A program made the position numbers and the translations under genes. From an uncultured Myxococcales bacterium (GTDB taxonomy: Bacteria; Myxococcota_A; Polyangia; Fen-1088): a stretch of DNA of 64,000 bases. Under the pieces are notes generated by a model. It was not told the DNA's origin and searched no databases. It was given only the letters and a program-made list of their open reading frames with translations. Position 1 is the first letter of the stretch; each line of letters opens with the position of its first letter. Below, in pieces: positions 38,706-41,058 of the stretch. Location: positions 10,047-74,046 of the forward strand of contig CAZYFU010000010.1 in assembly GCA_964647025.1 (NCBI GenBank). The letters are read 5' to 3'.

Positions 38706-39956
38706 ATGAGAACTGGCACCGCGGATTTGCCCCTGCATGGCGGGCGCGTGCCCATGTGGTTGGCCGCACGGATGGCGCGCCTTGGCCGGGTCATGGTCGA
38801 GGCACTCGTCATCGAGTACGGACGCGACGAGGTCTTGCGCCGACTGGCCGACCCCTTCTGGTTTCAGTCGCTCGGCTGCGTGATGGGGATGGACTGGCAT
38901 TCGTCGGGTATCACGACCAGCGTTCTCGGGGCGCTCAAGCGCGGGTTGGCCCCGGTGGAAGGCGAGCTCGGCATCCACGTTTGCGGCGGTCGAGGCCGAC
39001 ACTCCAGGCGCACCCCCGATGAGCTGCGCGCCCTGGGCGACAGGCTGTCCGTCGACGCCGCCGGCCTGGTGCGTGCGAGCCGCTTGGTCGCGAAGGTCGA
39101 CAGCGCGGCGGTGCAGGATGGCTTCGACCTGTACCTTCACGGCTTCATCGTCGCCGACGACGGGAAATGGGTCGTCGTCCAGCAGGGCATGAACCCGGCA
39201 AGACGCCAGGCGCGCCGCTACCACTGGCTCTGGGATCGCGCGGGCTCGTTCGTGGACCAGCCGCACTCGGCCATCGAGGGCGAGCCGGCACCCACGCCTA
39301 TCGTCAACCTCACGGATCGTGCGGCCGCGGCGTCGCGTCAACAAACCGTGGCGCTCGCGGTGTCGGATCCGGCCAAGGTCGTGGCTCAGGTCGAACGCGT
39401 GCTGGAAATGCCGAGCCACCATGACGTGCGCGCCGATAACCTCGATCTGCGCAGACTGGGGGCCGCGTTGCACGTGGCGGCGAAGCAGGGCCCGGCGACT
39501 TTTCCCGAGCTGCTCCTCACCCCCAACATCGGCCAGCGCACGCTGTTCGCGCTGGCGCTGGTGGCGGAGGTCTTGCACGGTGCGCCGTGTCGGTTTTCCG
39601 ACCCTGCGCGGTTCTCCTTTGCCCACGGAGGTAAGGACGGGCACCCGTTCCCGGTGCCGCTCAAGGTCTACGACGAGACGCTCGGAGCCCTTCGACGCGC
39701 CGTGGATGGCGCCAAGCTGGGTCAGACGGACAAGCTGGCTGCCCTACGAAAGCTGGACGAACAGTGCCGGTTGGCCGAACGGGCGGCCAGTGGGAGGGCG
39801 TTGCCCACCAGCCCGTCGATTGCGCTTGCGGCGGTGATCGCGCACGAACGGCGCGTCTCGCCGCAGTTGGGCGGCCGTACCTGCTCGGGCGGAGCAACAC
39901 GACCGCGTCAGTTGTCGCTCAGGTTTGGTCCCGGAGCGCCTTTACGAGAATCTTGA
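38706..39956 (+). CDS. DUF763-like conserved hypothetical protein
   Basis: N-terminus ...ADLPLHGGRVPMWLAARMARLG...DPFWFQSLGCVMGMDWHSSGITTSVLGALK recalls the DUF763 family. Follows the small protein after a 28-nt gap. Its 3' end overlaps the convergent flgM-like gene by 38 nt. Confidence 0.55.
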   Translation: MRTGTADLPLHGGRVPMWLAARMARLGRVMVEALVIEYGRDEVLRRLADPFWFQSLGCVMGMDWHSSGITTSVLGALKRGLAPVEGELGIHVCGGRGRHSRRTPDELRALGDRLSVDAAGLVRASRLVAKVDSAAVQDGFDLYLHGFIVADDGKWVVVQQGMNPARRQARRYHWLWDRAGSFVDQPHSAIEGEPAPTPIVNLTDRAAAASRQQTVALAVSDPAKVVAQVERVLEMPSHHDVRADNLDLRRLGAALHVAAKQGPATFPELLLTPNIGQRTLFALALVAEVLHGAPCRFSDPARFSFAHGGKDGHPFPVPLKVYDETLGALRRAVDGAKLGQTDKLAALRKLDEQCRLAERAASGRALPTSPSIALAAVIAHERRVSPQLGGRTCSGGATRPRQLSLRFGPGAPLRES

Positions 39957-40194
39957 GCGCGAGGCGTTGTGGGTGGACCTTGTACGTTCCCTCCGCGACC
40001 TGACGACGAAGCTCTTCCACTCGGATGCGCCGCGAAACCGACTCTGCGCTGGGCGTGGACGGCGCACTGAGTGGACCCCTGCGCACTTGTAGGTTGGTTG
40101 GTGCTGCCATGTACTCGAACATCGGCCCCTGTGAGAAATCCTTAAGAGGATCCGAGAGGTTTTTTCGACTTTTTCGAAAGTCGAACGATGGCAA
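39919..40194 (-). CDS. anti-sigma-28 factor FlgM-like protein
   Basis: 91 aa. The C-terminal RVEELRRQVAEGTYKVHPQRLALKILVKAL matches the FlgM sigma-binding helix pattern ([IV]..G.YKVD...IA..[IL]L). Located directly downstream of a FliA-type sigma factor gene. Confidence 0.5.
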   Translation of the reverse strand: MPSFDFRKSRKNLSDPLKDFSQGPMFEYMAAPTNLQVRRGPLSAPSTPSAESVSRRIRVEELRRQVAEGTYKVHPQRLALKILVKALRDQT

Positions 40195-40254
40195 GGAGTT
40201 AGGGACCCAACCCAGGCCCCCGCGCTCGGTGGAGACGGCTTTGGCGCCTTCGGA

Positions 40255-41058
40255 CTACGCTGCGACGGCGTCTTCGATGTCCGACAGCGACTCGCGCAGG
40301 CGGCGCGTGGCTTCGCCGTGGATCTGACAGACGCGGGATTCGGTCACGCCGAGGATCTCGCCGATCTCCTTCAGGTTCATGTTCTCGCAGTAGTAGAGCG
40401 AGAGCACCTGCTGCATCTTCTCGGGCAGATCGTCGATGCCGGAGACCAAGTGCGCGAGCGCTTCCCGGTGCGCGGTGAGCTCGAAGGGATCGGGAGAGTT
40501 GTTGTCGCTCGTGCGTTCGAGGAAATCTGGACCCGCGTCGTCGATACCGACCACCGACGATCCGGAGAGCTTCTGCTGGCGGGTATACAGCTCGTCTACC
40601 CTGAGGCCGAGGGTCTCTGCGAGCTCGCCCTGGTCGGGCGTACGACCGAGTTGGGACTCGAGCTTGCGCGTCGCTTCACGCAGCTCGTTCGAGAGGCGCC
40701 GCATATCGCGAGAAAGCGTGTCGCGGGCGCGCAGGTCGTCGAGCATGGCGCCGCGGATGCGGAACTCGGCGAAGGCTTCGAAGCGATCGACGCGCTTGGG
40801 GTCGAAGCGCTCGGCAGCCTCCATGAGTCCGATCACGCCTGCCGAGACCAGATCGTCGATCTCGACGTGGGCTGGAAGGCGACGGGCGAGCCGACGCGCC
40901 ACCTTCTCGATGTACGGGAAGAACTTGGCCGCATACTCACGGCGTCGCGCTGCGAGCGCCTTCGGGGAAAGCTTGCGTTCACTGGTACGCTTCTTGGCCG
41001 CCTTGTGCGCTGCCGGCCGTCGTTGCTTACTTACCCGAGCTCGCTTCGCTTTTGGCAT
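40255..41058 (-). CDS. RNA polymerase sigma factor, FliA/WhiG (group 3, sigma-28-like) family
   Basis: Region 2 [39 protein letters not shown]. Region 4.2 [38 protein letters not shown], nearly identical in pattern to E. coli FliA. Lys/Arg-rich N-terminal extension of about 30 aa. Confidence 0.8.
   Translation of the reverse strand: [267 protein letters not shown]

What the first reader, a model, noticed from the sequence alone, without database searches (positions are those of the whole stretch)
39919..41058. FliA/WhiG-type sigma factor with FlgM-like anti-sigma factor in a (presumably non-flagellated) myxobacterium
Region 2 and region 4.2 of the sigma factor are close to flagellar sigma-28 (…[35 protein letters not shown]). 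The 91-aa downstream ORF ends with a FlgM-type sigma-binding helix (AEGTYKVHPQRLALKIL). Myxobacteria glide and lack flagella, so this pair likely controls a non-flagellar regulon (development, motility or surface proteins). The sigma factor also carries an unusual Lys/Arg-rich N-terminal extension of about 30 aa.
Basis: partly seen in the sequence, partly recalled or inferred. Interest (0 to 1): 0.5.

Follow-up and report, generated by a model that had tools for sequence, protein, structure and literature searches.

The report
Self-wired FliA–FlgM–activator module in myxobacteria
An uncultured group of soil myxobacteria carries a flagellar-type sigma factor with a miniature FlgM anti-sigma factor and a neighbouring sigma-54-type regulator, whose promoters are wired to each other as a feedback circuit with no flagellar genes nearby; what the circuit controls is unknown.

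Summary
The ORF at 40255-41058(-) is a FliA/WhiG-family sigma factor, scoring above the curated cutoffs. The ORF downstream is a FlgM-type anti-sigma factor, but it is about 63-67 aa long, not 91. The host belongs to an uncultured Polyangia (Myxococcota) clade.

Across 80 related genomes the conserved unit has three genes: an NtrC-type enhancer-binding protein (EBP), then the sigma factor, then the mini-FlgM. Each gene has its own conserved promoter-like motif a few bases before its ATG:
- sigma-28-type motifs precede the EBP gene and flgM;
- a sigma-54 -24/-12 motif with two upstream CGTCA-N6-TGACG dyads precedes the sigma gene.

This suggests a feedback loop: FliA drives EBP, EBP with sigma-54 drives fliA, FliA drives flgM, and FlgM inhibits FliA. 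In the window's own lineage, however, the EBP has lost the GAFTGA loop and the phospho-acceptor Asp, so its role there is unclear.

No flagellar gene lies in the 1.31 Mb of flanking DNA examined. Genome-wide absence of flagella could not be tested, and the regulon is unknown. The pair is already auto-annotated in public databases, and orphan FliA/FlgM pairs are known in non-flagellated Legionella. I rate this a new variant of a known kind.

The parts
41245..42570 (-). Gene for an NtrC-type enhancer-binding-protein-like regulator, 441 aa: receiver domain, AAA+ sigma-54-interaction domain, HTH_8 DNA-binding domain. In this lineage the phospho-acceptor Asp is replaced by Ser and the GAFTGA loop is missing.
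   Evidence: Pfam Response_reg, Sigma54_activat, AAA_lid_14 and HTH_8. It lies immediately upstream of the sigma gene on the same strand in 73 of 80 loci. The start at ATG 42570 (MQIRILLVDDD) comes from the conserved promoter-to-ATG spacing and from an independent 441-aa gene call. The status of Asp57 and GAFTGA comes from the alignments.
42582..42608 (-). Sigma-28-type promoter motif in front of the EBP gene: TCAG-N15-GCCGATTA, with the ATG 11 nt after the -10 octamer.
   Evidence: An equivalent motif (CTCAAG or CTTCAG, spacer, CCGAT) occurs just before the EBP ATG in most loci that have upstream sequence. With a loose sigma-28 pattern, the only non-coding matches in the 64-kb window are this site and the flgM site.
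41148..41197 (.). Two upstream dyads, CGTCA-N6-TGACG, at 41148-41163 and 41182-41197. These are candidate enhancer (UAS) sites for the EBP, about 60-110 nt upstream of the -24 element.
   Evidence: CCGTCA occurs in 98% of the loci in this region against 13% in background. There are 92 dyads upstream of the sigma gene against 12 elsewhere in 1.25 Mb, and these two are the only ones in the 64-kb window.
41071..41086 (-). Sigma-54-type -24/-12 promoter motif TGGCACGGCGGCTGCA, with the sigma factor's ATG 12 nt downstream.
   Evidence: TGGCA[CT]G-N4-[CG]TGC[AT] is followed by the ATG at 12-13 nt in most of the 81 sequences. The score is at least 13 of 15 in 61 of 81, against a background of 0.028 per 370 nt. 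It is the only such motif in the window.
40255..41058 (-). FliA/WhiG-family (sigma-28) sigma factor, 267 aa, with a Lys/Arg-rich N-terminal tail of about 30 aa.
   Evidence: TIGR02479 228.8 bits (cutoff 189.6) and NF005413 231.4 bits (cutoff 201). The best solved relatives are WhiG and FliA chains at E 1e-35 to 1e-44, against 1e-16 for RpoS. It is 43% identical to E. coli FliA and 70-93% identical across 80 MAGs.
40119..40144 (-). Sigma-28-type promoter motif in front of flgM: TAAG-N14-GCCGATGT, with the ATG 8 nt after the -10 octamer.
   Evidence: A strict pattern is found at this position in 47 of 81 loci, against 0.007 expected per 300 nt. A PWM score of at least 16 is reached in 63 of 80 loci. 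It is the only PWM hit in the 64-kb window, scoring 31.7, against 0.3 hits expected.
39919..40110 (-). Mini-FlgM anti-sigma-28 factor, 63 aa (67 aa if the ATG at 40122 is used): a variable basic or Pro-rich N-terminal half and a conserved C-terminal helix (RVEELRxxVAxGxYxVxPxxLAxKIL).
   Evidence: PF04316 FlgM at 33.6 bits for the 63-aa form, and 27 of 27 clade representatives hit FlgM. The clade profile finds only the FlgM chain 9wsf_B in the whole PDB, at E=0.0013. A FlgM-like ORF lies downstream of the sigma gene in 77 of 80 loci. Public calls are 62-67 aa and are labelled anti-sigma-28 factor.

Best explanation
This is a conserved, self-contained three-gene regulatory module of an uncultured Polyangia clade. 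It is not part of a flagellar gene cluster.

Shown:
- A FliA/WhiG-family sigma factor is always followed by a miniature FlgM-type protein and is almost always preceded by an NtrC-type EBP gene.
- Each gene has its own conserved promoter-like motif a few nucleotides before its ATG. Sigma-28-type motifs precede the EBP gene and flgM. A sigma-54 -24/-12 motif with two upstream dyads precedes the sigma gene.

Inferred mechanism:
- The mini-FlgM binds and holds the sigma factor inactive through its C-terminal helix.
- Free sigma factor transcribes flgM, which gives negative feedback. This also happens in Salmonella and in non-flagellated Legionella oakridgensis.
- Free sigma factor also transcribes the EBP gene. 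The EBP binds the CGTCA-N6-TGACG dyads and, with sigma-54 RNA polymerase, controls transcription of the sigma gene.
- In lineages where the EBP keeps GAFTGA and the receiver Asp, this closes a phosphorylation-gated positive loop, and the result is a switch-like circuit.
- In the window's own lineage the EBP has lost both GAFTGA and the Asp. There it most likely still binds the dyads but cannot activate sigma-54 by the canonical contact. It would then act as a modulator or repressor, or need a partner EBP.
- All three mRNAs would be leaderless or nearly so.

The output regulon lies elsewhere in the genome and is unknown. I consider a non-flagellar role somewhat more likely than a flagellar one. 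In that case FlgM would be released by proteolysis rather than by export through a flagellar basal body.
For: Family assignments.

Synteny: sigma factor in 80 of 80 loci, FlgM-like ORF in 77 of 80, EBP adjacent in 73 of 80.

Promoter motifs:
- The sigma-28-type motif before flgM is in 47 of 81 loci by strict pattern, against about 0.6 expected in total, and in 63 of 80 by PWM.
- The same type of motif lies before the EBP ATG in most loci.
- The sigma-54 motif lies 12-13 nt before the sigma ATG in nearly all loci.
- The tandem dyads are enriched 7-fold and are almost exclusive to this position.
- In the 64-kb window each motif type occurs only at the module.
- There is no sigma-70-type promoter match in the 4-kb module region.

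Constraint: the sigma factor is very strongly conserved (median 81% identity) while FlgM and the EBP are at about 49%. This argues for a constrained, functional sigma factor.

Context: flanking genes differ between sub-clades, so only the three genes travel together. None of 44 E. coli flagellar structural, export, motor or regulator proteins has a hit in 1.31 Mb of window plus loci.

Gene starts: independent gene calls agree with the corrected starts.

Precedent: an orphan FliA/FlgM pair with sigma-28-dependent flgM and degraded FlgM is described in PMC5655016.
Against: - Nothing here is experimental. Promoter function, FlgM binding and EBP binding to the dyads are all inferred from motifs and homology.
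- In the window lineage and several others the EBP lacks GAFTGA, and the window lineage also lacks the phospho-acceptor Asp. The proposed positive loop therefore cannot work canonically in the window itself, yet the sigma-54 motif and the dyads are retained there. This is unexplained.
- The sigma-28 motif before the window's EBP gene is a weak match to the PWM trained on the flgM sites (score 8.5).
- No target outside the module was found, so the biological output is unknown.
- Whether the clade has flagella was not tested genome-wide.
- The mini-FlgM matches only the last third of FlgM models and fails the NCBIfam equivalog cutoff.
Confidence: 0.6

Rival explanations
1. This is an ordinary flagellar late-gene regulator pair. 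On this reading the uncultured Polyangia clade is flagellated. The EBP is its FleQ/FlrA-like master regulator, which drives fliA through sigma-54 as in polar flagellates such as Vibrio. FliA then turns on flagellin and motor genes located elsewhere, and FlgM is exported through the hook-basal body.
For: The sigma factor passes the FliA model and FlgM passes Pfam. The order EBP plus sigma-54, then fliA, then flgM mirrors known polar-flagellar hierarchies (established knowledge of Vibrio and Pseudomonas; not tested here). The EBP has a weak FleQ N-terminal domain hit at 23.5 bits against a cutoff of 22. A preprint lists 'flagellar assembly' among the traits of other uncultured Myxococcota MAGs. 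The very high conservation of the sigma factor fits a large, fixed regulon.
Against: No flagellar structural, export, motor or chaperone gene lies in 1.31 Mb around the module in 80 genomes plus the window, whereas fliA and flgM usually sit in or beside flagellar clusters. FlgM is cut down to about 63 aa and lacks most of the region upstream of the sigma-binding helix. The EBP has repeatedly lost GAFTGA, which a flagellar master activator should not tolerate. All cultured myxobacteria lack flagella (general knowledge). The EBP scores best against generic NtrC models, not FlbD, FlgR or FleQ models.
Confidence: 0.25
2. The -24/-12-like motif before the sigma gene is not a sigma-54 promoter. It would instead be another conserved element, such as the operator of some other regulator or part of a leaderless translation signal. 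The GAFTGA-less EBP-like protein would then act on a sigma-70-type or sigma-28-type promoter, as TyrR or Rhodobacter capsulatus NtrC do.
For: The adjacent EBP lacks GAFTGA in the window lineage and in several others. EBP relatives without GAFTGA that act at sigma-70 promoters are known (general knowledge). The predicted transcript would have only a 2-3 nt leader, which is unusual for sigma-54 promoters.
Against: The motif matches the sigma-54 consensus at the invariant GG and GC with exact N10 spacing in nearly all loci. It sits at a fixed distance from the ATG and is accompanied by tandem dyads about 60-110 nt upstream, which is the classic enhancer geometry. About half of the lineages keep a canonical GAFTGA EBP. 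No sigma-70-type promoter match exists in the region.
Confidence: 0.12
3. The pair is a decaying remnant of an ancestral flagellar regulon and has no present function.
For: FlgM is truncated and the EBP is degenerate in several lineages.
Against: The sigma factor is 70-93% identical across 80 species-level genomes with an intact frame. Its promoter and enhancer motifs are conserved, and FlgM is retained in 77 of 80 loci. That is strong purifying selection, not decay.
Confidence: 0.03

Closest known systems
Orphan FliA-FlgM pair of non-flagellated Legionella (L. oakridgensis and other clade III species; L. israelensis and L. londiniensis also keep FleQ)
   Same: A sigma-28 factor and FlgM are kept without adjacent flagellar genes. 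flgM expression is sigma-28-dependent. FlgM must be released by something other than hook-basal-body export, and degradation has been proposed. In some species a sigma-54-type regulator (FleQ) is retained as well (PMC5655016).
   Different: Here the pair is in Myxococcota. Absence of flagella is not demonstrated. FlgM is cut down to about 63 aa. The EBP gene is physically linked and itself carries a sigma-28-type promoter, and the sigma gene carries a sigma-54 promoter with tandem dyads, which closes a loop. All three ATGs sit a few nucleotides after the predicted transcription starts.
Polar-flagellar transcription hierarchies (Vibrio FlrA, Pseudomonas FleQ, Legionella FleQ: sigma-54 plus EBP, then FliA, then FlgM)
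   Same: The logic is the same: an NtrC-family EBP and sigma-54 act upstream of fliA, FliA transcribes late genes including flgM, and FlgM antagonises FliA (established knowledge, not tested here).
   Different: There are no flagellar structural genes in the neighbourhood. The EBP gene appears to be FliA-dependent, which is feedback rather than a one-way cascade. The EBP has lost GAFTGA and the receiver Asp in the window lineage.
WhiG-RsiG of Actinomycetota (Streptomyces sporulation, Rubrobacter type IV pili)
   Same: A sigma-28-family factor has been redeployed to non-flagellar programmes and is controlled by a small anti-sigma factor (PMC7005675, PMC8325347, PMC13595943). WhiG chains are the best PDB matches to the window's sigma factor.
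   Different: The anti-sigma factor here is FlgM-type (PF04316), not RsiG, and nothing indicates c-di-GMP dependence. A GAF-GGDEF cyclase gene does lie next to the module in 30 related loci, but not in the window.
Canonical FlgM (Salmonella/E. coli 97 aa; Aquifex FlgM in the sigma-28 complex 1RP3/1SC5; FlgM chain 9wsf_B)
   Same: The C-terminal sigma-binding helix with the G-x-Y-x-V motif aligns to FlgM residues 68-104 of 9wsf_B and to Pfam FlgM positions 22-54 of 55.
   Different: It is only about two thirds of the usual length. The part upstream of the last helix is variable and basic or Pro-rich. It falls below the NCBIfam FlgM equivalog cutoff, and E. coli FlgM gives no tblastn hit.

Membership tests
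FliA/WhiG (sigma-28) family of sigma-70-type sigma factors | Score above the curated family cutoffs (TIGR02479, NF005413) and clearly above other group-3 sigma models | tested here: met
   228.8 bits (cutoff 189.6) and 231.4 bits (cutoff 201). SigB/F/G scores 90 bits, RpoS 75 and sigma-32 53.
FliA/WhiG (sigma-28) family of sigma-70-type sigma factors | Domain make-up: regions 2, 3 and 4, with no region 1.1 or 1.2 | tested here: met
   Pfam Sigma70_r2, r3 and r4. The protein aligns end to end with FliA and WhiG chains of solved structures. The extra N-terminal tail is basic, not an acidic region 1.1.
FliA/WhiG (sigma-28) family of sigma-70-type sigma factors | Recognises TAAA-N15-GCCGATAA-type promoters | tested here: inconclusive
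   Conserved TAAG/CAAG-N14-15-GCCGAT(G/T) motifs lie in front of flgM and the EBP gene. This fits the family, but recognition by this sigma factor was not tested.
FliA/WhiG (sigma-28) family of sigma-70-type sigma factors | Controls flagellar late genes (the FliA sense of the name) | not testable with these tools
   No flagellar gene lies in 1.31 Mb of flanking DNA.
FlgM anti-sigma-28 factor (PF04316 / TIGR03824) | Profile match above the curated cutoff | tested here: inconclusive
   The Pfam gathering score is passed (32.7-33.6 bits against 25), and 27 of 27 clade members hit the family. The NCBIfam equivalog cutoff is not reached (27.2 against 40.75), because only profile positions 60-94 of 98 are matched.
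FlgM anti-sigma-28 factor (PF04316 / TIGR03824) | Encoded with or next to its sigma-28 partner and transcribed from a sigma-28-dependent promoter | tested here: met
   It lies immediately downstream of the sigma gene in 77 of 80 loci, with a conserved sigma-28-type motif before its ATG. Promoter activity is inferred.
FlgM anti-sigma-28 factor (PF04316 / TIGR03824) | Binds and inhibits sigma-28 | not testable with these tools
   Only homology of the C-terminal helix to the FlgM chain of a solved FliA-FlgM complex is available (9wsf_B, E=0.0013 with the clade profile).
FlgM anti-sigma-28 factor (PF04316 / TIGR03824) | Exported by the flagellar type III apparatus through an N-terminal signal | not testable with these tools
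   The N-terminal half is short (about 28 aa), variable and basic. No export apparatus genes were seen nearby.
Bacterial enhancer-binding protein (sigma-54 activator, NtrC class) | AAA+ sigma-54-interaction domain with Walker A and B motifs | tested here: met
   PF00158 at E=3e-42 over the full length of the model. The motifs are GEDGTGK and GTLFIDEI.
Bacterial enhancer-binding protein (sigma-54 activator, NtrC class) | GAFTGA loop that contacts sigma-54 | tested here: not met
   The window has FGAPNVSGKEAPTTGQG in its place. The loop is also lost in its nearest relatives and, apparently independently, in several other lineages. It is intact in about 27 of 60 orthologues.
Bacterial enhancer-binding protein (sigma-54 activator, NtrC class) | Receiver domain with a phospho-acceptor Asp (CheY D57 position) | tested here: not met
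   The window has Ser (CVISLGLP). Asp is present in 46 of 60 orthologues, Ser in 8, His in 3, Asn in 2.
Bacterial enhancer-binding protein (sigma-54 activator, NtrC class) | C-terminal Fis-type HTH and cognate upstream dyad sites near a -24/-12 promoter | tested here: met
   HTH_8 at E=5e-14. Conserved tandem CGTCA-N6-TGACG dyads lie about 60-110 nt upstream of the conserved -24/-12 motif. Binding is inferred.

The most novel reading that the evidence does not exclude
The module is an autonomous switch in a widespread, uncultured and non-flagellated soil and peat myxobacterial clade. A flagellar-type sigma factor, a sigma-54 enhancer-binding protein and a miniature FlgM regulate one another from three dedicated promoters on leaderless mRNAs. 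The switch would govern a non-flagellar programme such as development, surface motility or predation. In several lineages the EBP has been converted, by loss of GAFTGA, from the activator of the loop into a non-activating binder of the same enhancer, which would rewire positive feedback into negative feedback.
Probability: 0.3. Interest if true: 0.7.

Novelty: new variant of a known kind. Interest (0 to 1): 0.5.

Why it matters
Sigma-28 and FlgM are the textbook checkpoint that couples gene expression to flagellum assembly. Cases where the pair survives without a flagellum (Legionella oakridgensis; WhiG in Streptomyces) show how a checkpoint can be redeployed.

This module would add a third, phylogenetically distant case, in a clade that is abundant in soil and peat metagenomes. 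It has an unusually explicit wiring diagram that can be read from the DNA: three promoters and one enhancer, all conserved. It gives concrete, testable predictions: the transcription start sites, the sigma-FlgM contact, and the EBP-dyad contact. It also offers a natural series of EBP variants with and without GAFTGA for asking how a sigma-54 activator is converted into something else while its binding sites stay in place.

If the clade turns out to be flagellated, the finding would instead be evidence for flagella in a Polyangia lineage, and the module would be a compact example of the usual hierarchy.

Tried and rejected
1. Literature. Searches for FliA, FlgM or sigma-28 in Myxococcota, Polyangia or myxobacteria found no paper on the subject. 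Mentions of flagella in Myxococcota MAG papers were generic or were only reference titles. One preprint lists 'flagellar assembly' for other lineages.

2. Regulon search. The clade PWM and a looser pattern found no sigma-28-type site outside the module, either in the 64-kb window or in the loci beyond the EBP and flgM positions.

3. Flagellar genes genome-wide. Only the flanks were tested.

4. Neighbouring genes as functional clues. They vary by sub-clade: PheA, a T2SSE ATPase, a GMC oxidoreductase, a GAF-GGDEF protein, DUF763, and S58 and GSH-synthetase-like genes. No consistent partner appears.

5. A cognate histidine kinase next to the EBP. None is conserved.

6. A second EBP that could serve the sigma-54 promoter where GAFTGA is lost. 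Only one sub-clade has another EBP, of a GAFTDA type, 7-9 kb away, and the window has none.

7. Single-sequence PDB search with the mini-FlgM. The result was insignificant (E=0.4). Only the clade profile reached significance.

8. Other signals in the module region. There were no Rfam hits, no sigma-70 promoter matches and no excess of terminators.

9. ATG-anchored information profiles. These were blurred by 1-nt spacing differences and added little.

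
Full report
What is at the coordinates. The 267-aa product of 40255..41058 passes the curated cutoffs of the FliA/WhiG family model TIGR02479 (228.8 bits against 189.6) and of the FliA subfamily model NF005413 (231.4 against 201). Pfam finds regions 2, 3 and 4. Among solved structures the best matches are WhiG (6pfv, 6pfj) and FliA (9wsm, 6pmi, 1rp3) chains at E 1e-35 to 1e-44, against 1e-16 for RpoS. Identity to E. coli FliA is 43%. It does not reach the stricter NCBIfam FlgM equivalog cutoff (27.2 against 40.75), because only the last third of that model is matched.

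Who carries it. A scan of one genome per species returned 80 loci whose sigma factor is 70-93% identical to the window's. All come from metagenome-assembled genomes labelled Polyangia, Myxococcales, Myxococcota or 'delta proteobacterium', from soils, fens and similar habitats. The protein database gave 5,100 relatives. The best 120 are all at least 75% identical, and many are already named 'RNA polymerase sigma factor for flagellar operon FliA' by JGI. The rest of the 64-kb window is ordinary chromosomal housekeeping (Lon, DnaJ, ClpB, SerS, HU, PBP1A, CrcB, Nuo subunits, two S41 peptidases, UvrC) and contains no motility or secretion gene.

The conserved unit has three genes, not two. In the 80 loci the sigma gene is followed by a FlgM-like frame in 77. 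Of the three exceptions, one is cut by a contig end and two appear to be second copies. It is preceded on the same strand by an NtrC-type enhancer-binding protein (EBP) gene in 73. Beyond these three genes the neighbours change from sub-clade to sub-clade: PheA, a T2SSE-type ATPase, a GMC oxidoreductase, a convergent GAF-GGDEF cyclase in 30 loci, and DUF763 in the window. None of the recurring neighbours is flagellar. The sigma factor is far more conserved (median 81% identity) than FlgM or the EBP (about 49%).

The small gene is shorter than reported. Inside the 5' part of the 91-aa frame lies TAAG-N14-GCCGATGT (40144..40119), a close match to the sigma-28 consensus TAAA-N15-GCCGATAA. Eight nucleotides after it comes an ATG (40110). 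The same arrangement, yAAG-N14/15-[G/T]CCGATG followed 9-10 nt after the hexamer by the ATG that opens the FlgM-like frame, is found in 47 of 81 sequences with a strict pattern, against 0.007 expected per 300 nt. With a PWM built from those sites it is found in 63 of 80 loci. The frames opened by that ATG are 62-70 aa in nearly all cases, with one of 79 aa. Public gene callers independently predict 62-67 aa proteins with a Pfam FlgM hit, labelled 'anti-sigma28 factor'. All 27 non-redundant representatives hit Pfam FlgM individually. A profile of them finds one chain in the whole PDB, the FlgM chain of a FliA-FlgM complex (9wsf_B, E=0.0013), aligned over FlgM residues 68-104. The protein is thus a mini-FlgM: a variable, basic or Pro-rich N-terminal half, then a conserved helix RVEELRxxVAxGxYxVxPxxLAxKIL. 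It evolves fast. An exhaustive single-sequence search of 1.8 billion representatives finds only 19 clusters.

Cross-wired promoter motifs. The PWM trained on the flgM sites found a second class of sites about 1.6 kb upstream of the sigma gene, directly in front of the EBP gene. In almost every locus with upstream sequence, a CTCAAG or CTTCAG element, a spacer and a CCGAT(G/T) element are followed within 8-12 nt by the ATG that opens the receiver domain (M-x-[KR]-ILLVDDD). In the window this is TCAG-N15-GCCGATTA (42608..42582) with the ATG at 42570. That makes the EBP 441 aa rather than the 514 aa of the longest frame, and an independent gene call agrees.

In front of the sigma gene the motif is of a different kind. 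TGGCA[CT]G-N4-[CG]TGC[AT], the sigma-54 -24/-12 consensus with the invariant GG and GC at the right spacing, is followed by the sigma ATG 12-13 nt later in nearly all 81 sequences. The score is at least 13 of 15 in 61 of them, against a background of 0.028 per 370 nt. In the window it is at 41086..41071. About 60-110 nt upstream of it lie two dyads, CGTCA-N6-TGACG. The half-site CCGTCA is present in 98% of loci against 13% of random segments. There are 92 such dyads at this position in the loci against 12 anywhere else. The only two in the 64-kb window are here, at 41148-41163 and 41182-41197.

Within the window, each motif type occurs only at the module. No sigma-70-type promoter match, Rfam family or excess of terminators is present. 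Because each ATG sits a few nucleotides after the predicted start site, all three mRNAs would be leaderless or nearly so. This is an inference from geometry.

The inferred circuit. Taken at face value the motifs say the following. FliA-type holoenzyme transcribes flgM and the EBP gene. The EBP, bound at the dyads, acts on the sigma-54 promoter of the sigma gene. FlgM sequesters the sigma factor. The FliA-to-flgM arm is the well-known negative feedback, and it persists in non-flagellated Legionella oakridgensis, where flgM is sigma-28-dependent and FlgM appears to be degraded rather than exported (PMC5655016). The EBP/sigma-54-to-fliA arm resembles polar-flagellar hierarchies (general knowledge). 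The FliA-to-EBP arm closes a loop. None of these steps has been tested experimentally.

A complication in the window's own lineage. The EBP is not uniformly a canonical activator.
- The GAFTGA loop that contacts sigma-54 is intact in about 27 of 60 orthologues.
- It carries single substitutions in a few.
- It has been replaced or deleted, apparently independently, in several lineages. These are the window and its nearest relatives (FGAPNVSGKEAPTTGQG, variable and of low complexity), the fen group (a 7-9 residue deletion) and two other groups.
- The receiver's phospho-acceptor (CheY D57 position) is Asp in 46 of 60 but Ser in the window group.

The Walker motifs, the HTH, the dyads and the -24/-12 motif are nevertheless retained in all of them. 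So in the window the neighbouring protein fails two defining tests of a sigma-54 activator while its presumed binding sites persist. It most likely still binds the enhancer but cannot activate by the canonical contact. What fires the sigma-54 promoter there is unexplained. A second EBP, of a GAFTDA type, lies 7-9 kb away in one sub-clade only.

Flagella or not. I translated 48 annotated E. coli K-12 flagellar, motor, chemotaxis and regulator genes and searched them against the window plus the 80 loci, 1.31 Mb in all. Only FliA itself and generic receiver or kinase domains matched. No structural, export, motor or chaperone protein did. The module is therefore never embedded in a flagellar cluster. 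That does not show that the genomes lack flagella. I found no paper on FliA or FlgM in Myxococcota. Weighing the isolation of the module, the truncated FlgM, the repeated decay of the EBP's activating loop and the absence of flagella in all cultured myxobacteria, I put the non-flagellar reading somewhat ahead of the flagellar one, at roughly 0.6 against 0.25.

The regulon. No target outside the module was found in the window or loci. The output of the circuit is unknown.

The N-terminal tail. The start codon at 41058 is fixed by the promoter geometry, so the Lys/Arg-rich tail is translated. Across the clade it has a median of 35 residues before region 2, 34% Lys+Arg, 6% Asp+Glu and a net charge of +11. 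Its sequence varies. E. coli FliA has about half as many residues before region 2. The tail's role is unknown; DNA contact or a degron are possibilities.

Verdict. The family assignments are sound and already present in automatic annotations. 'Non-flagellated' and 'non-flagellar regulon' remain untested. What is new is the conserved three-gene, three-promoter, one-enhancer wiring and the lineage-specific loss of the EBP's activating features. This is best filed as a new variant of a known kind, an orphan or redeployed sigma-28/FlgM system, of moderate interest.

Noticed in passing
window 41245-42570 (-); loci L001-L005, L012-L023, L040, L056, L062, L064, L065, L069, L071, L073, L076, L080: The EBP next to the sigma gene has lost the GAFTGA loop several times, apparently independently. 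In the window group it has also lost the receiver Asp (changed to Ser). The sigma-54 motif and the enhancer dyads stay conserved throughout. It is unexplained what activates the promoter in these lineages.
   Followed up: partly
L027:11161-12444 (-) and 29 other loci, about 1.8 kb downstream of the sigma start: A GAF-GGDEF diguanylate cyclase gene lies convergent to flgM in 30 related loci, but not in the window, where DUF763 takes that place. It could hint at a c-di-GMP link, as for WhiG-RsiG, or it could be coincidental synteny.
   Followed up: no
L041:3794-4573 and L079:2422-3171: Two MAGs carry a second sigma-28-type gene on another contig. It has the sigma-54 motif before its ATG but no EBP or FlgM beside it; the neighbours are FtsH, a PAS hybrid kinase, a STAND NTPase and an SBP. 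These could be paralogues or contamination of the bins.
   Followed up: partly
window 38706-39956 (+) against 39919-40110 (-): The convergent DUF763 gene (E=1.6e-122) overlaps the 3' end of the mini-flgM by about 38 nt. On one public contig this overlap caused the FlgM gene not to be called at all (L084).
   Followed up: no
window 40120-40122 (-): Public gene callers start the FlgM gene at the ATG that lies inside the predicted -10 element (GCCGATG), giving 67 aa. The clade-wide conserved ATG is 12 nt further on, giving 63 aa.
   Followed up: yes
window 43202-45304 (+) and 45139-51470 (+): A fused NuoE-NuoF protein (a 2Fe-2S thioredoxin-like domain plus the 51-kDa FMN domain) is followed by the NuoJ, L, M and N-type genes, and by a NuoK-type gene in the public gene calls. 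NuoA-D and NuoG-I are not in between, so this is a partial, split complex I cluster. It diverges from the module in 26-30 related loci.
   Followed up: no
window 42919-43407 (-): A CrcB fluoride channel gene lies just upstream of the module. No fluoride riboswitch or any other Rfam family was detected within 37-46 kb at E<=0.1.
   Followed up: partly
L046, L053, L055, L056, L064, L065, L071, L074, L078, about 7-9 kb upstream of the sigma gene: One sub-clade has a second, well conserved EBP gene with a GAFTDA variant of the sigma-54 contact loop.
   Followed up: partly
window 16860-18905 (+), 21489-23555 (-), 55486-58524 (+): There is a DUF4215 Cys-rich repeat/PA14 protein, and two proteins with pyruvate-phosphate-dikinase-type ATP-binding domains. 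One of the latter is fused to a lamin-tail domain. None has an apparent link to the module.
   Followed up: no
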